From Naegleria gruberi (Eukaryota): a stretch of DNA of 64,000 nucleotides. A program made the position numbers and the translations under genes. The stretch lies in assembly GCA_000004985.1 (NCBI GenBank), contig GG738846.1; one strand, 5' to 3'. Of this stretch, positions 27,398 through 32,787 are shown piece after piece. The notes under the pieces were generated by a model. The model was given only the letters and a program-made list of their open reading frames with translations, was not told the origin of the DNA and did no database searches. How positions within the stretch are numbered: the stretch's first letter is position 1; each line of letters begins with the position of its first letter.

Positions 27398-29149
27398 ATG
27401 ATTCATCCATCGGCTGCCACCTCTGGATTAGTAAACAGAAAAAAACTTGATGAAGAACCCATCATTAATTTACAAACATCAAATCAATTCATTCACAATG
27501 AACAACAATTTACACAAAAATCAATTTCCAATTATTTAATTATTTTCAGCATTATTATTAATATTTTACTTTTTTATTTTCTATTTATTGTCTTTCCGAG
27601 GAGGATAACATCCATTGGTGATGGCTATAATTTACCAAATACTAAATGGAATGAAGTAACATTTCTACATCAGCACATTCGATCATCACCATCATTTCCA
27701 AAATCATTTAACATTCATGATTTGATAGCAATCTTGCTGACCAATAAGGAAACTACTGTTGGATCCTATCAATGGTATAAAAATCAATTGGAACAGTTTA
27801 GTTTGTTGGGTACTACTAAATTTAAAGATAGAGTCATGACTAGGTTTGGATTTGATACAGAGAGAATAACTTCGCCAAATATGTTTAATTATTTTAGGAC
27901 ATTTAGTGTAAAGGATAATTGTAAATATCAACACTCATGTCAAATATATCCTTTCAATGATGCCATACGTGAATTTAATATGGGTAATCAATTGGATGCT
28001 GTACTGTATTATTACCATGAGCCTTACAAGTACATTTCTAAACCACTTCACAGTGAAAAGAAAGTTATTGGTTCTCTTTGGCAGAGTTTAACAAATTTTG
28101 ATTTGGAACATGTTTCATCAATGGAAGGTTTACAACAATTATCTGCCAAAATTGATGATTTGAATGGTGAAAATGTTTGGAGAGGAATGAGAACTCTTTC
28201 AATTTATATGAATAGTGAAGCACTTGTAGAGGAAAGATTATCAAACAAGATTCAACTTGTCAATGATAAGGATTCCATGCAAAGATTTTCTAATTCTCAT
28301 ATAGATATTACTTCTTGTTTTATGAAGAATTGTACAGTATGGATTAACTATTTGTATCAACCAATTGATTTAGACTCTCCAAAATTTGCATCTAAAAATC
28401 CAACCCACTCATCCATTTGTGCATTCATTTCCAATTGTATTGCTGGTGGTCAATTGCCACTAAGAAGACTTTTACTGCTTCGTAAATTAGGTCAATATGT
28501 TCCAGTGCGGCAATATGGAAAATGTTTTAACAATGCACAAGAAGGTCCAGGGGGAAAGGCCTTTGAATTGGAAAATAATTGTAAATTCTATTTTGCCATG
28601 GAAAATTCACTCGTACCAGATTACATTACTGAAAAATTCTTTGAAGGAATGAAAGCTCTTGAAAAGGGTGCTAAAATTCTAATGATCTACAAGGGTGCAC
28701 CAAATATTCACTCCTTCAATTTCCCAAAATCCATGTACATTAACATTGATGACTATGAGTCAGTGGATGAGTTGGGCAAGTATTTGAAATTTTTAAATGA
28801 TAATCCAGTAGAGTTTGAAAAGAGATTTGCTCAAATTACTAAAAGTGATAGAATACAAGCTAATAAGGCAATTGATGAGTTGAATTACAAATTAGGTAAT
28901 ACTATTCCTTGCAGATTTTGTAAATCTATTGGGCAAGTTAAATTGGCTAGATACCTTTTATTCAAAATTGGTCTAGTTCCAAAATATTATAAGGTAAACT
29001 TTGATGAATGGAAAGAATTCAGGTCTAAATTTAATTATTTAGGTGAGGAAAGGTTGGCAATTTTGGATTCCATTTATCAAATGGCTTATGCAAATCTATT
29101 TTGTCCTGAAAATTTCAGAAATGAGTTTAATCTTGGATTTCAATATTGA
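27398..29149 (+). CDS. Glycosyltransferase family 10 alpha-1,3-fucosyltransferase-like type II membrane protein
   Basis: ATG in CAAAAAAAATG context. N-terminal signal-anchor (YLIIFSIIINILLFYFLFIVF). The C-terminal catalytic region carries the GT10 motif FYFAMENSLVPDYITEKFFEGM and downstream basic residues. Confidence 0.8.
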   Translation: MIHPSAATSGLVNRKKLDEEPIINLQTSNQFIHNEQQFTQKSISNYLIIFSIIINILLFYFLFIVFPRRITSIGDGYNLPNTKWNEVTFLHQHIRSSPSFPKSFNIHDLIAILLTNKETTVGSYQWYKNQLEQFSLLGTTKFKDRVMTRFGFDTERITSPNMFNYFRTFSVKDNCKYQHSCQIYPFNDAIREFNMGNQLDAVLYYYHEPYKYISKPLHSEKKVIGSLWQSLTNFDLEHVSSMEGLQQLSAKIDDLNGENVWRGMRTLSIYMNSEALVEERLSNKIQLVNDKDSMQRFSNSHIDITSCFMKNCTVWINYLYQPIDLDSPKFASKNPTHSSICAFISNCIAGGQLPLRRLLLLRKLGQYVPVRQYGKCFNNAQEGPGGKAFELENNCKFYFAMENSLVPDYITEKFFEGMKALEKGAKILMIYKGAPNIHSFNFPKSMYINIDDYESVDELGKYLKFLNDNPVEFEKRFAQITKSDRIQANKAIDELNYKLGNTIPCRFCKSIGQVKLARYLLFKIGLVPKYYKVNFDEWKEFRSKFNYLGEERLAILDSIYQMAYANLFCPENFRNEFNLGFQY

Positions 29150-29243: not shown

Positions 29244-30005
29244 TTACAGGATTGGTTTTGAAGTGAATTGATCACAAAAACCATTCAACTTTTTGAGTAA
29301 GTCAGTTTGTTTCTTTTTCTTTTGTTTCTCCTTCTTATTTTCCAAATACTTCCTATAAAACTCATAGTATTCCTCTTCATATTTTGAAAGAATGGGCGAA
29401 ATTTTGTTTGTAGGAGTTTGTTCAGACTCTTTCTTGGTCTTTTTTAAAATAAATTGATTCAGAAAATCTCTAATAATCTTGAAAATTCGAAATTGTTTCA
29501 CCACATTTCTTCCATAAATTACCAAGGTAAATAATAATCCTAATATGAAATATATTAATAAATTAATTTTAAATTTGAGATTGCTTTGATTTTTAAAAAA
29601 GCCAACCAATGGATTATATAAATTAATGGATGCTTCATTCATTCTATTAAATGATGATTTATAACTCATGGTATTGTTATTTAATTCTTCTCCGAATTGA
29701 TTTGAAAATACTTGATTCCTTTCCGTTTGTTGTGAATTGTGTAATTTGTAAAATGATGACGGATAGGAAGTGTAAACATTACTATTAAAGTTATTGGTGT
29801 TATTATTATTGAATAAGTTGTTGTTGTTATAATTATTGTTGAAGGGAGATGAAGAATTTGTGACAGAGTTATATCCACCCATATCTCCTCTACTCATTAA
29901 ATTATTATTATTATTAAAATTTGTATCCTGATAAAAATCATTCCGAGAATAGGGCAATGATGATGGATTGAACATTTTTTTAATTTTTATTTCTAAATAA
30001 TCCAA
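29244..30005 (-). CDS. Hypothetical N/Y-rich single-pass membrane protein, 253 aa
   Basis: ORF with an N- and Y-rich prion-like N-terminus, one TM (LLIYFILGLLFTLVIYG) and a K-rich C-terminus. Its start lies only 40 nt downstream of the stop of the preceding same-strand gene, so the start/UTR is uncertain. Confidence 0.35.
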   Translation of the reverse strand: MDYLEIKIKKMFNPSSLPYSRNDFYQDTNFNNNNNLMSRGDMGGYNSVTNSSSPFNNNYNNNNLFNNNNTNNFNSNVYTSYPSSFYKLHNSQQTERNQVFSNQFGEELNNNTMSYKSSFNRMNEASINLYNPLVGFFKNQSNLKFKINLLIYFILGLLFTLVIYGRNVVKQFRIFKIIRDFLNQFILKKTKKESEQTPTNKISPILSKYEEEYYEFYRKYLENKKEKQKKKKQTDLLKKLNGFCDQFTSKPIL

Positions 30006-30044: not shown

Positions 30045-31874
30045 TTATTGAGAACCTGGATATTTGCATGGGAGACTAGTTGGAGTGACATAACCAGCAG
30101 AACTAAACTTGATTGGTGGAAGAGGAATTGGAATACCATTATCATTACCAGCAAGACCAAATTCCATTTCAACAGAGAATGCAGTCCATCCCTTAGCTGG
30201 ATTTGGAACAAAAACATTGTAAGACCATGGATCATCAGGTGTGGTGGATCTGATAACGGTTGGTTCAAAGCTTTTACCTGTTTCAGTAATACGGAAATCT
30301 CTTGCCTTTTCATTGGTAGAAGCCCACAATGTTACTCTGAATGGAGTAACACCATTGAGAATTCTGATTTGAACATAGGCACCTTCTGGAGCATAGTTAT
30401 GAGAGAATGTATAGGTTGGAAGAGTAATGTTATAGAGAGTGGCAAATGAGAAGGTCAAAATGGTTTCCCAAATATCAGATCCAGCCATAGAGTGGCCAAC
30501 ATTAGGAATGTATCTTATTCTGTTGTCACATTAAAGTGGTAAGGTTGTAATAATTTCAAATTATTGAGATTATTGAAAAAATTAAATGAAACAAACCTTT
30601 TGAGATCATCACTACCAGGCAATTGTGGATAACTGTACAATGCCAAATCCTTTTTAAAATTAATTATTAAAATAAAATTATTGAAAACTTACAGGCCAGA
30701 AGAAGATATCTCCCAAACCATTGATAATAAACTTATTAATATTGGCATAACGTTCCTTATAAACGAGAGGATCAATAATTTGAGTCAATTGAGCAAATTC
30801 CTTAGTTTCCAAAAGATTCATAACACCTTGATCAGTGTAAGCCTCTGTATATATTATTTCACACCATTTTAAACATCCAAGTATGATTAATGAAAAAAAA
30901 TAAGCATTCATAAAGATATAAAATCCCAAAAAAAACATACCCATAGATTGTGGCCAAGAACAGAGAGAATTATAAACATGTTCCAAAATTTGTTTAAAGT
31001 TCAAAACTTGAATGACAATTGGAATAATTGTCTTGACTCTCTTATCAGTGGCAGCAACCAACCAAGTAGTCCAACCTCTCTTGGAACCACCCAAAACAGT
31101 AAAGTTTTCAATGAATTGACCACTTTTAACACCCATAATGGAATTAATAAAACTTTGCATAGAATCCATAGCAAGTTTAGCAGATTTAGCCATTGGTAAT
31201 TGAATAATCCAATCAGAGGCTGCTGAACCATCCTTTGTGTTATTCAAGAAATGTCTCCAAGTGAAAGCAGTAATTTCATCCTCAGTTCTACTTTGTTTAG
31301 CTGGATCACTTGCAAAGACAATTGGTTGATTAGGAATTTGAGTCAAATCAGCAATAATAGAACGTGTAACACTAGCCACCAATACAAGGTCATTGACATC
31401 ATTTGAATCAGGAATTGGTCTAATGTTATCACCACCATTGATCAAAAGGGAAGCTGTTCTCAAATTCTTATTTAAATTCTTTGGAACAACAACAGTAAGA
31501 GCATGTGTCCATATGGAACGAATTCCAACTTCTGATGGTGTTAAATAGGCTAAACTAGTCATATTCAAAATATAAATTGTTGCAGCAGGATTTTCAGTTT
31601 GAGAGGCGAGTTTATATCCATAGACTGGATCGGGAGTAGCCATGTACTTGTCGAGAATGGTATTTCCATCCTTGAAATTATTAGAAGAAGGTGGTCTATT
31701 CATGAGTGCAGCCATTGTTGTTGTTGTCATTGTCATCATTATCATGCAAAGCAGTAATACTGCTGATGATGATTTAAAATTAATTGATAAAATCATCGCG
31801 GGATCTATTGTTGGTTTTATAATATTGTTATTGTTGTTGATCAAAATTATTGATGATAAACGGAAGAAGCACAC
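30045..31874 (-). CDS. Secreted PhoPQ-activated-pathogenicity-related (PqaA) family protein, AprA-like; 3 exons, about 570 aa
   Basis: Exons 31874 (or ATG 31796, MILSINF... giving a signal peptide)..30693, 30649..30597, 30519..30045. Introns 30692..30650 (GTAAGT..AAAAAG, 43 nt) and 30596..30520 (GTTTGT..CAACAG, 77 nt). Phases are consistent and merge track ORFs 30678..31874 and 30045..30488. The hydrophobic signal region is followed by ...VLGGSKRGWTTWLVAATDKRVKTIIPIV..., reminiscent of PqaA-family proteins and Dictyostelium AprA-like secreted factors. Confidence 0.55.
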
Positions 31875-32124
31875 AGAGTTGTTGCTGTTGTTTTTTCAAA
31901 AAAGAGAGAGAATCAAATGGACCACTGTGTGGTGTGTGTGTTTCTCTCATTGATGCCTTAATATCCAAGTTGGAAAAAACCCTACCCCACACATTAAGAA
32001 GAAGCTTCACATTTAAATGCGGAGAAGCTTTTACAACGACAAAAACTCCTTGGGGCTGCAAATAGAATGAACTATTCACAGTCATTTATCTTCACAGTTT
32101 ACTTGAATAAAAAGTTATAGAACT

Positions 32125-32787
32125 TTACAATTTGTGATCGTCACCCAAACCACCTTGTTTGCAACAATCAACGAAATAACTAACAGATCCCTTTCCACTT
32201 CCAGTATTATAATAGGTCTTCCAGTATTGTGCTTGGTCTTGGAGAGATGTCGGAATTGCTGCTGGAATTGTGAATAAATTCAAACGAGCAGCCAATACAG
32301 AATATAAGGCACGTACACATTGTGTCCACTTTACACTTTTCCATTCAATACCCATCTTGTTATCTAATTCTTCGAATTTTTTGGCAAGGAAGGGATGAGA
32401 GGATGAATCTTGTGAGTTTTTAAATCCAATATCATCCACTGTTTTGTTTGTTGTTAACAGAGATTCCAATAATGAATCAAGTTCAATATGATCATTAAAA
32501 AGTGTAAGTGTGTGATCAACCACAAATTGATGATATGAATACAACTAACCTTGCCAAATACCTCCATAATATCCACTTCTATATGTTCCTGGAGCTTGCC
32601 CATAGTTTGATTCACACAAAGCAACTCTCTTCATAAAGAGATGAGTATTGCTATTCAACCAGCCCAAACCATCAAGCTCTCTCAATGCAGCATCAACCAC
32701 AGCTTCTCCCATATCTTGTGCACTGATCAAAGCACCGACTATTGACAATAATAACAATGCAACAAGAACAACAAGTATTCCTTTCAT
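32125..32787 (-). CDS. Secreted goose-type lysozyme / lytic-transglycosylase-like protein, 2 exons, about 185 aa
   Basis: Exon 1 is 32787..32550 (AAAAAAATG; signal peptide MKGILVVLVALLLLSIVGALISA). Intron 32549..32439 (GTTAGT..AAAACAG, 111 nt). Exon 2 is 32438..32125. The spliced product ...ALCESNYGQAPGTYRSGYYGGIWQVDDIG... matches the G-type lysozyme catalytic region (..SRESHAG...GLMQVD..): Glu in CES, Asp in QVDD. The two track ORFs are in-frame read-through. Confidence 0.55.

What the first reader, a model, noticed from the sequence alone, without database searches (positions are those of the whole stretch)
30045..32787. Adjacent pair of secreted, bacteria-like proteins: PqaA/AprA-like and goose-type lysozyme-like
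Two neighbouring minus-strand genes both begin with signal peptides and both have their closest recognisable relatives among bacterial or bacterially derived families. The first is a PhoPQ-activated pathogenicity-related (PqaA) domain protein, the family of Dictyostelium secreted chalone-like factors such as AprA. The second is a G-type lysozyme / SLT-like glycosidase with the catalytic CES...GIWQVDD signature. Both needed manual splicing; the lysozyme is two track ORFs joined by a 111-nt GTTAGT..CAG intron. A bacteriolytic enzyme next to a secreted signalling-type protein may reflect a bacterivore feeding/defence locus or an old horizontal acquisition.
Basis: partly seen in the sequence, partly recalled or inferred. 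Interest (0 to 1): 0.5.

Follow-up and report, generated by a model that had tools for sequence, protein, structure and literature searches.

The report
Secreted lysozyme-like and AprA-like gene pair
Two neighbouring genes of a Naegleria-like amoeba encode secreted proteins: an ordinary AprA/PqaA-type hydrolase, and a lysozyme-like protein from an uncharacterised family that in phages sits where the cell-wall-cutting lysis enzyme normally sits.

Summary
Both minus-strand genes exist, with a hydrophobic N-terminal leader and GT..AG introns that restore frames matching homologues. The genome looks heterolobosean (Naegleria-like), not dictyostelid.

- **Gene 2 (30045-31796):** a full-length PF10142 PhoPQ_related protein (E 3.9e-93) with an invariant Ser-Asp-His triad. 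AprA-like secreted proteins are already reported in N. fowleri.
- **Gene 1 (32125-32787):** not a recognised goose-type lysozyme or SLT member. Pfam and NCBIfam give nothing.
  - It hits PHROG phrog_3108 ("unknown function", E 5.7e-16). Its family has 2,821 cluster representatives.
  - In phiKO2 and the PMBT28/K21lambda1 phages, relatives sit beside holin and spanin-like genes, in the endolysin slot.
  - Eukaryotic relatives include stony corals, Lingula and Amphiura. Unnamed multidomain relatives are often fused to VWA or chitin-binding domains.
  - Profile comparisons align its conserved E-S...G-I-W-Q-V-D with the E73...D97 region of goose lysozyme, below significance thresholds.

Most likely it is a secreted peptidoglycan-cleaving enzyme of phage or bacterial ancestry. 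The pair is also adjacent in N. lovaniensis with unrelated flanks, but not in Willaertia. A functional link between the two genes is unproven.

The parts
32125..32787 (-). Lysozyme-like gene (183 aa, stop included): exon 1 32550-32787, exon 2 32125-32438
32439..32549 (-). 111-nt spliceosomal intron (GTTAGT..CAG), phase 1 in codon V80
   Evidence: Removing it restores the invariant GGIWQVD motif. The position differs from the two introns of the N. lovaniensis orthologue, and W. magna has none.
32719..32787 (-). Predicted signal peptide of the lysozyme-like protein (about residues 1-23, MKGILVVLVALLLLSIVGALISA)
   Evidence: It is the only hydrophobic segment of the protein, with 19-aa Kyte-Doolittle means up to 3.1. 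Heterolobosean, metazoan and delta-proteobacterial relatives also start with hydrophobic leaders, whereas phage copies do not. The cleavage site is inferred.
32434..32613 (-). Putative catalytic region E59-S60 ... G75-G76-I77-W78-Q79-V80-D81, interrupted by the intron
   Evidence: Codons checked and conservation. hhalign aligns it to the ES...GLMQ motif of Slt70/MltC/D/E (P 4.9e-5). An HMM of the family aligns it to goose lysozyme E73...D97 (E 0.03-0.06).
31797..32124 (.). 328-bp intergenic spacer between the two same-strand genes
   Evidence: The equivalent spacer in N. lovaniensis is 95 bp (L073 10648-10742).
30045..31796 (-). PqaA/AprA-like gene (511 aa, stop included): exons 30941-31796, 30693-30844, 30597-30649, 30045-30519; introns 30845-30940, 30650-30692, 30520-30596
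   Evidence: Gene model. PF10142 matches at E 3.9e-93 over profile positions 1-367 of 367. Exon junctions were validated by alignment A3. The putative triad is S238 (31083-31085), D331 (30708-30710) and H363 (30492-30494), invariant in 14 sequences.

Best explanation
These are two independent nuclear genes of a Naegleria-like amoeba, each encoding a secreted hydrolase of ultimately bacterial or phage ancestry.

Gene 1 encodes a small, all-helical enzyme of the lysozyme superfamily. It belongs to an unnamed family whose phage members serve as the endolysin. I infer that after export (secreted, or delivered to phagosomes/lysosomes) it cleaves the glycan strands of bacterial peptidoglycan. Glu59 at the C-terminal end of a helix would act as the general acid. 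Asp81 in G-I-W-Q-V-D would occupy the position of goose-lysozyme Asp97, which favours hydrolysis (muramidase) over lytic transglycosylation. It would serve prey digestion and/or antibacterial defence.

Gene 2 encodes a secreted alpha/beta-hydrolase of the PhoPQ_related (PqaA/AprA) family with an intact Ser-Asp-His triad. Its substrate is unknown. It may act as an AprA-like density or repellent factor, or as another digestive hydrolase.

Shown here: gene structures, family memberships, fold, motif conservation, phage lysis-cassette context, and conservation of the pair in N. lovaniensis. Inferred: secretion, enzymatic activity, substrate, direction of transfer, and any functional coupling of the two genes.
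For: - **Motif:** E59, S/T60, G76, Q79 and D/E81 are each conserved in at least 140 of 152 sequences.
- **Profile comparisons:** hhalign places ES...GGIWQVD on the SLT ES...GLMQ motif (P 4.9e-5, probability 68%). With a wider family profile, goose, swan and a third g-type lysozyme are hits 2-4 of 177,635 PDB sequences, aligned over E73...D97.
- **Weak Pfam hits:** six of the 17 sub-threshold hits among 63 members, including the three strongest, are to Phage_lysozyme2, SLT and Transglycosylas.
- **Family:** phrog_3108 matches at E 5.7e-16 over the full length. Six uncharacterised phage proteins match the model with TM 0.66-0.76.
- **Phage context:**
  - In phiKO2, gp54 lies after the annotated putative late promoter, between a 3-TM holin-like gp53 and TM/lipobox spanin-like ORFs. 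PhiKO2 is listed with a two-component spanin in PMC6139136.
  - In PMBT28 and K21lambda1 the homologue abuts the annotated holin, followed by an N-terminal-TM protein with an embedded lipoprotein ORF. PMBT28 has no other annotated endolysin.
  - A Marinicellulosiphila prophage shows small-TM protein / homologue / TM protein / terminase.
- **Eukaryotic relatives:** many carry VWA or chitin-binding CBM_14 domains, which fits extracellular glycan-directed roles.
- **Genuinely eukaryotic gene:** it has a spliceosomal intron and housekeeping neighbours.
- **PqaA-like gene:**. Secreted AprA-like proteins were already reported in N. fowleri (PMC6831594).
Against: - No member of the family has been assayed.
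- All sequence links to GH23/SLT are below conventional significance: no Pfam hit for the window protein, PDB HMM E 0.03-0.06, and Foldseek against PDB best E 0.5 with TM 0.43-0.48.
- The best Foldseek match is a chitinase, so the substrate could be chitin.
- In the marine phages JH01 and Vibrio 1.049.O the upstream small ORF has no TM segment, so an endolysin role is not evident there.
- Secretion is inferred from hydropathy only.
- The choice of muramidase over lytic transglycosylase rests on one conserved acidic residue.
Confidence: 0.65

Rival explanations
1. The lysozyme-like protein acts on chitin or on the amoeba's own cyst wall or other beta-1,4 glycans, like the GH23 chitinase of Ralstonia, rather than on bacterial peptidoglycan.
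Against: The phage members sit in lysis cassettes of Gram-negative hosts, where the substrate can only be peptidoglycan. The catalytic motif is shared across phage and eukaryotic clades. CBM_14 is absent from the Naegleria protein.
Confidence: 0.12
2. The lysozyme-like protein is a non-catalytic binding or signalling protein that only keeps the lysozyme fold, as alpha-lactalbumin does.
For: No activity data exist. VWA and EGF fusions in animals could suggest adhesion roles. Sequence similarity to characterised enzymes is sub-threshold.
Against: The Glu and the second acidic residue are retained in more than 90% of 152 diverse members from phages to animals. That level of retention is what purifying selection on catalysis would produce. 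The window protein keeps both residues.
Confidence: 0.08
3. The adjacency of the two genes has no functional meaning. It is a small block of neutral synteny inherited from the Naegleria ancestor.
For: W. magna has the lysozyme-like gene without a neighbouring PqaA gene. None of 70 bacterial loci carrying the lysozyme-like family has a PqaA gene within about 5 kb. Naegleria genomes are gene-dense, so close same-strand neighbours are common. From the 208 predicted secreted proteins reported for N. fowleri (PMC6831594) and my own rough figure of about 13,000 genes, I estimate that a few adjacent secreted pairs are expected by chance.
Against: The pair is the only thing shared between the 64-kb window and the 20-kb N. 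lovaniensis locus. All flanking genes differ, so the pair has survived rearrangements that broke up its surroundings.
Confidence: 0.55
4. The genes are bacterial or phage contamination, or a mis-assembly, and not amoeba genes.
For: Both families are abundant in bacteria.
Against: One gene has one GT..AG intron and the other has three, and all are needed to restore frame. GC content (0.31-0.34) matches the rest of the window. The neighbours are eukaryotic housekeeping genes (Vps18, RagA, UBC, P-type ATPase). Orthologues exist in the N. lovaniensis, N. fowleri and W. magna genomes.
Confidence: 0.01

Closest known systems
Goose-type lysozyme / family-1 lytic transglycosylases (CAZy GH23; Pfam SLT PF01464)
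   Same: Both have an all-helical lysozyme-like fold and a catalytic Glu followed by Ser at the end of a helix. The G-[IL]-[WM]-Q-V-D motif has its Asp at the position of GEWL D97. A YYNTxxGxG segment is colinear with AYNAGxG at low confidence. Size (about 160 aa mature) and secretion also match.
PHROG phrog_3108 (phage proteins of unknown function, e.g. Klebsiella phage phiKO2 Gp54)
   Same: There is a significant full-length HMM match (E 5.7e-16, positions 3-155 of 160) with the same conserved residues. The predicted structures are similar (BFVD TM 0.66-0.76).
   Different: Phage and most bacterial copies have no signal peptide, are about 150-175 aa long, and form clades separate from the secreted eukaryote-type clade (99-100% NJ bootstrap support). 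Identity to the window protein is only about 25-30%.
Known cases of phage or bacterial cell-wall hydrolases domesticated by eukaryotes (GH25 muramidases, T4-type lysozymes of bivalves, Tae/Dae amidases; recalled from my own knowledge, not read here)
   Same: The family shows a patchy eukaryotic distribution (Heterolobosea, stony corals, Lingula, Amphiura) next to abundant phage and bacterial relatives. The eukaryotic copies gained signal peptides, and their introns sit at positions that differ between species.
   Different: It is a different protein family. The direction and number of transfers are not resolved by the NJ tree.
Dictyostelium AprA / Salmonella PqaA (Pfam PhoPQ_related PF10142)
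   Same: The match is full-length at 312 bits. The protein has an N-terminal leader, and the GxSKRGW, GDxFF and PNxGH motifs are invariant. Three AprA-like proteins in the predicted secretome of N. fowleri have been reported (PMC6831594).
   Different: AprA's chalone and chemorepellent function has not been tested in any heterolobosean. Bacterial homologues (36-41% identical) are nearly as close as the Naegleria paralogues (41-47%).

Membership tests
Pfam SLT / goose-type lysozyme (GH23) | Match to the SLT family model above its gathering threshold | tested here: not met
   The window protein has no SLT hit at E<=1. Among 63 relatives scanned at E<=10, only 2 touch SLT (best E 0.013) and 3 touch Phage_lysozyme2 (best E 0.0074).
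Pfam SLT / goose-type lysozyme (GH23) | Lysozyme-like alpha-helical fold | tested here: met
Pfam SLT / goose-type lysozyme (GH23) | Catalytic Glu in an E-S motif at the C-terminal end of a helix | tested here: met
   E59-S60 end helix 46-60 of the model. E is conserved in 147/152 sequences and S/T in 152/152. The motif aligns to Slt70 E478 (hhalign P 4.9e-5) and to GEWL E73.
Pfam SLT / goose-type lysozyme (GH23) | G-L-M-Q motif, with the Asp that follows in g-type lysozymes (GEWL D97) | tested here: met
   The motif is G76-I77-W78-Q79-V80-D81. G is conserved in 150/152 sequences, Q in 143/152 and D/E in 140/152. It aligns to GLMQVD of swan and goose lysozyme.
Pfam SLT / goose-type lysozyme (GH23) | A-Y-N-x-G motif in the C-terminal lobe | tested here: inconclusive
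   YYNTxxGxGTV lines up with AYNAGPGRV only in a greedy, low-confidence extension of the hhalign alignment.
Pfam SLT / goose-type lysozyme (GH23) | Muramidase or lytic transglycosylase activity on peptidoglycan | not testable with these tools
   This needs an enzyme assay.
PHROG phrog_3108 | Significant full-length match to the family HMM | tested here: met
   E 5.7e-16, residues 23-175 on profile positions 3-155 of 160. Bacterial and phage relatives score 1.8e-31 to 8.7e-51.
Phage endolysin (functional class) | Gene located in a lysis cassette next to holin and spanin genes (for the phage relatives) | tested here: met
   This holds for phiKO2 gp53-gp57, for PMBT28 and K21lambda1 and for a Marinicellulosiphila prophage. 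It is not evident in JH01 or Vibrio phage 1.049.O.
Pfam PhoPQ_related (PqaA/AprA) PF10142 | Match to the family model above its gathering threshold, over the full length | tested here: met
   312.5 bits against a cut-off of 20.3, E 3.9e-93, residues 48-430 on profile positions 1-367 of 367.
Pfam PhoPQ_related (PqaA/AprA) PF10142 | Alpha/beta-hydrolase-type Ser-Asp-His residues (GxSKRGW, GDxFF, PNxGH) | tested here: met
   S238, D331 and H363 are invariant in 14 heterolobosean, mollusc and bacterial sequences. Their role as a catalytic triad is inferred.
Dictyostelium AprA-type chalone/chemorepellent | The secreted protein slows proliferation or repels cells | not testable with these tools
   Only homology-based naming exists. 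AprA itself was not aligned here.

The most novel reading that the evidence does not exclude
phrog_3108-type proteins are a so far unrecognised glycoside-hydrolase family: phage endolysins distantly related to GH23. The family has been domesticated as secreted antibacterial or digestive enzymes by eukaryotes as far apart as Heterolobosea, stony corals, brachiopods and brittle stars. In Naegleria it is kept together with an AprA-like serine hydrolase as a two-gene bacteriolytic unit.
Probability: 0.4. Interest if true: 0.6.

Novelty: new variant of a known kind. Interest (0 to 1): 0.45.

Why it matters
If the activity is confirmed, this family would be a new class of peptidoglycan hydrolase. 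It has 2,821 cluster representatives and no Pfam or NCBIfam model, and every named copy seen here is labelled "hypothetical", "uncharacterized", "unknown function" or just "Gp54". Confirmation would do three things:

- Fill the missing-endolysin gap in N15-like and PMBT28-like phages.
- Supply a new enzybiotic scaffold.
- Add another case of cross-kingdom transfer of antibacterial genes into bacterivorous protists and marine invertebrates.

For Naegleria biology it would add a candidate prey-digestion or defence enzyme. The PqaA/AprA-like gene is a routine family member and was already noted in N. fowleri.

Tried and rejected
- **Sequence searches of PDB.** Searches with the single protein and with the 13-sequence profile found nothing relevant. 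Only the broader 63-sequence profile brought up goose-type lysozymes, at sub-threshold E-values.
- **Family libraries.** NCBIfam gave nothing for the window protein or its bacterial relatives.
- **Fold libraries.** The afdb50 fold library was unavailable. Foldseek against PDB was weak.
- **Species identification.** Exact-sequence look-ups of window ORF 27398-29149 and of P0013 and P0014 found no contigs. I could not name the species or check whether N. fowleri and N. gruberi keep the pair.
- **Co-transfer hypothesis.** I looked for a PqaA gene next to the lysozyme-like gene in 70 bacterial loci (608 kb) and found none. I reject co-transfer of the pair from bacteria.
- **Wider synteny.** I compared the window with the N. 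lovaniensis and W. magna loci and found no shared genes beyond the pair.
- **Literature.** The Casjens 2004 phiKO2 paper is not held under the PMC id I tried, so I could not read its authors' view of gp54. A search for phrog_3108 found no paper.
- **Dictyostelid origin.** I rejected it because the best hits are Naegleria and Willaertia.
- **Contamination.** I rejected it because of the introns and the eukaryotic neighbours.
- **Sequence from memory.** The E. coli Slt70, MltC, MltD and MltE sequences were taken from NC_000913.3. The independent PDB search used deposited sequences.
Full report
**1. What is in the sequence**

The window is AT-rich (GC 0.27-0.38) and carries intron-containing eukaryotic genes. 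On the minus strand between 30045 and 32787 lie two genes.

The upstream gene has two exons, 32787-32550 and 32438-32125. They are separated by a 111-nt GTTAGT..CAG intron in phase 1. The gene encodes 183 aa.

The downstream gene starts 328 bp further on. Its four exons are 31796-30941, 30844-30693, 30649-30597 and 30519-30045, with GT..AG introns of 96, 43 and 77 nt. It encodes 511 aa.

Homology supports every junction. The first gene's splice recreates GGIWQ|VDD, which is continuous in the intronless Willaertia magna orthologue and nearly invariant in the family. The three junctions of the second gene align without gaps to the N. fowleri orthologue and to bacterial homologues.

Each protein has a single hydrophobic segment at the N-terminus and no other TM-like segment. 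This fits a signal peptide, but I could not run a dedicated predictor.

**2. Which organism**

The best hits for both proteins are heterolobosean. For the first gene they are N. lovaniensis (64%) and W. magna (61%). For the second they are N. fowleri (64%), N. gruberi (46%, presumably a paralogue) and W. magna (43%).

The window is therefore from a Naegleria-like amoeba, not a dictyostelid. Exact look-ups did not find the species.

The neighbours are ordinary eukaryotic genes: a P-type ATPase, a UBC, Vps18, RagA, a GT10 fucosyltransferase and an M16C-like protease. Together with the introns and the uniform composition, this excludes contamination.

**3. The PqaA-like gene**

It matches Pfam PhoPQ_related (PF10142) over the whole model, at E 3.9e-93 and 312 bits against a cut-off of 20.3.

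In an alignment with six heterolobosean, one bivalve and six bacterial homologues, S238 (GGSKRGW), D331 (GDxFF) and H363 (PNxGH) are invariant. This fits an active alpha/beta-hydrolase.

After the heterolobosean paralogues and one mollusc protein, the next hits are almost all bacterial or unnamed metagenomic PF10142 proteins at 35-41% identity. The search found 3,778 proteins at E<=1e-10.

UniRef already labels an N. fowleri paralogue "Autocrine proliferation repressor". Liechti et al. 2019 reported three AprA-like proteins in the predicted N. fowleri secretome (PMC6831594). This half of the finding is correct but already known. Its biochemical substrate remains unknown.

**4. The lysozyme-like gene: what it is not**

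The window protein has no Pfam hit to SLT or to any lysozyme family, even at E<=1. It has no NCBIfam hit and no PDB sequence hit. By the usual criteria it is not a goose-type lysozyme or SLT-domain protein.

**5. The lysozyme-like gene: what it is**

It belongs to a large family without a name.

- **Size of the family.** A profile search of 1.84 billion cluster representatives found 2,821 proteins at E<=1e-3 and 301 at E<=1e-30.
- **Named eukaryotic members.** These come from N. lovaniensis, W. magna, the stony corals Orbicella, Porites, Montipora and Desmophyllum, the brachiopod Lingula and the brittle star Amphiura. All are labelled uncharacterised or hypothetical.
- **Multidomain relatives.** Of 68 scanned, 28 carry VWA domains and 8 carry chitin-binding CBM_14 domains. 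A few have EGF domains (3), and single proteins have MAM or LDLa.
- **Bacterial members.** A scan of one genome per bacterial species found 70 loci. Most encode 150-175-aa proteins without signal peptides.
- **Phage family.** These bacterial proteins and the window protein all match PHROG phrog_3108, annotated "unknown function". The window protein scores E 5.7e-16 over the full length.
- **Phage records.** tblastn finds the family in 28 phage records.

**6. Genomic context in phages**

- **Klebsiella phage phiKO2.** The homologue Gp54 lies downstream of the annotated putative late promoter. It sits between Gp53 (101 aa, three TM segments, holin-like) and Gp55 plus a lipobox ORF (VALAGC), which look like spanins. 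Kongari et al. list PhiKO2 among phages with a two-component spanin (PMC6139136).
- **Salmonella phage PMBT28 and Klebsiella phage K21lambda1.** The order is terS, homologue, annotated holin (three TM segments), a 156-aa protein with an N-terminal TM segment, an embedded lipoprotein ORF, then terL. PMBT28 has no other annotated endolysin in its 68 genes.
- **A prophage in the complete Marinicellulosiphila genome.** The order is tail-fibre-like gene, 76-aa TM protein, homologue, N-terminal-TM protein, terminase.

In three unrelated phage groups the family thus occupies the endolysin slot. The marine phages JH01 and Vibrio 1.049.O are less clear, because the upstream small ORF has no TM segment.

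Two chromosomal bacterial copies (Limnobacter and Pseudoalteromonas) are followed by small signal-peptide proteins, in a layout that resembles effector-immunity pairs. The Pseudoalteromonas copy has a weak N-terminal PG_binding_1 match.

**7. Fold and catalytic motif**

An AlphaFold2 model built on the 13-sequence alignment is confident (pLDDT 87.3, pTM 0.83) and all-helical.

- fungal muramidase 8b2e
- MltE
- Cj0843c
- phiKZ gp144
- the Ralstonia GH23 chitinase
- Slt70
- FlgJ
- phi6 P5
- T6SS muramidase effectors

Foldseek against PDB is weak. The best match is the GH23 chitinase at E 0.5 and TM 0.43-0.48. Against BFVD, six uncharacterised phage proteins match with probability 1.0 and TM 0.66-0.76. 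Weak hits to destabilase, muramidase and SLT proteins follow.

In a 152-sequence alignment the conserved residues are:

| Residue | Conserved in |
|---|---|
| E59 | 147/152 |
| S/T60 | 152/152 |
| G76 | 150/152 |
| Q79 | 143/152 |
| D/E81 | 140/152 |

R131, P142 and the YWK-YYN block are also nearly invariant. E59-S60 close helix 46-60 of the model.

hhalign of this alignment against E. coli Slt70, MltC, MltD and MltE plus GEWL gives one local hit (P 4.9e-5, probability 68%). It places vES...GGIWQVD on ES...GLMQI. A greedy extension puts YYNTxxGxGTV on AYNAGxGxV.

With a 63-sequence profile that includes the phage clades, black-swan, goose and a third g-type lysozyme become hits 2-4 of 177,635 PDB sequences (E 0.03-0.06). 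They align across E73 to D97.

Six of the 17 weak Pfam hits among 63 members, including the three strongest, are to Phage_lysozyme2, SLT and Transglycosylas.

GH23 is the closest characterised family and the catalytic Glu and Asp positions correspond. But the relationship is remote and below every family threshold.

A 2024 survey of metazoan g-type lysozymes found none in hydrozoans or anthozoans other than two soft corals (PMC11576321). Stony corals carry this family, which confirms that it is not counted as g-type.

**8. Evolution**

A neighbour-joining tree (160 columns, 100 bootstraps) gives a secreted "eukaryote-type" clade with 100% support. It contains the metazoan sequences, a monophyletic Heterolobosea (100%; window plus N. 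lovaniensis at 94%) and two signal-peptide proteins from delta-proteobacterial MAGs. The phage and bacterial clades are separate (99%).

Relationships inside the eukaryote-type clade are unresolved, so the number and direction of transfers cannot be stated.

Intron positions differ among orthologues:

- W. magna has none.
- The window gene has one, in codon 80.
- N. lovaniensis has two, in codons 72 and 160.

This pattern fits an intronless ancestor, such as a transferred gene, that gained introns later. That remains an inference.

**9. Is the pair a unit?**

In N. lovaniensis the lysozyme-like gene is followed 95 bp later, on the same strand, by the orthologous PqaA-like gene. That gene is mis-split into two gene calls.

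Nothing else is shared between the 64-kb window and that 20-kb locus, so the pair has outlived its surroundings.

Against a functional unit:

- W. magna has the lysozyme-like gene next to unrelated genes.
- No bacterial locus links the two families.
- I had no genome-wide microsynteny baseline.

I rate a functional link as possible but unproven, at roughly 0.3-0.45.

**10. Verdict**

The PqaA/AprA-like gene is a routine and already reported family member. The lysozyme-like gene is the more interesting half. It is a secreted member of an uncharacterised family in the lysozyme superfamily. That family is probably the endolysin of several phage groups and has been taken up patchily by eukaryotes.

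The most likely function is cleavage of bacterial peptidoglycan during feeding or defence (confidence about 0.65). The main rival is a chitin or cyst-wall substrate.

Novelty lies at the level of a new family within a known superfamily, and a known evolutionary phenomenon. Interest is moderate.

Noticed in passing
window 32439-32549; L073 10216-10262 and 10526-10582; L074 10001-10549: Intron positions in the lysozyme-like orthologues are not conserved. W. magna has none. The window gene has one (phase 1, codon 80). N. lovaniensis has two (phase 2 in codon 72, phase 1 in codon 160). This suggests lineage-specific intron gain after an intronless origin.
   Followed up: yes
L073 10743-11384 and 11420-12648: The N. 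lovaniensis annotation splits the PqaA-like orthologue into two gene calls (213 and 273 aa). tblastn with the window protein spans both.
   Followed up: partly
L054 4695-5625; L028 4404-5701: Chromosomal bacterial copies of the lysozyme-like family in Limnobacter and Pseudoalteromonas are each followed by a small protein with a signal peptide; the overlap with the upstream gene is about 10-30 nt. The layout resembles an effector/immunity pair. The Pseudoalteromonas copy has a weak N-terminal PG_binding_1 match (E 0.13).
   Followed up: partly
L016 4893-5570: The copy in a 'Stappiaceae' MAG clusters with a VWA-fused eukaryote-type protein (NJ 91%) and lacks part of the motif. This may be eukaryotic contamination of the MAG.
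   Followed up: no
L018 4914-5483 and L015 4692-5183: Limoniibacter endophyticus (an alpha-proteobacterium) carries a phiKO2-type copy almost identical to that of Pseudocitrobacter. This is either assembly contamination or an N15-like plasmid prophage in an unexpected host.
   Followed up: no
L003 3867-5417; L004 28-1302: In a Rhodospirillaceae MAG the domain is the C-terminal about 140 aa of 424-516-aa proteins with long low-complexity N-terminal regions. Many library representatives likewise carry it at the C-terminus of 850-985-aa proteins, an architecture reminiscent of virion-associated lysins or polymorphic toxins.
   Followed up: no
window 29244-30005 (-): The gene just downstream of the PqaA-like gene encodes an Asn-rich, low-complexity protein of about 250 aa with one hydrophobic segment. 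It has no Pfam match and no counterpart in the N. lovaniensis locus.
   Followed up: no
window 30650-30692: Intron 2 of the PqaA-like gene is only 43 nt long with 9% GC. It is short but required for the frame, and the homologue alignment supports it.
   Followed up: yes
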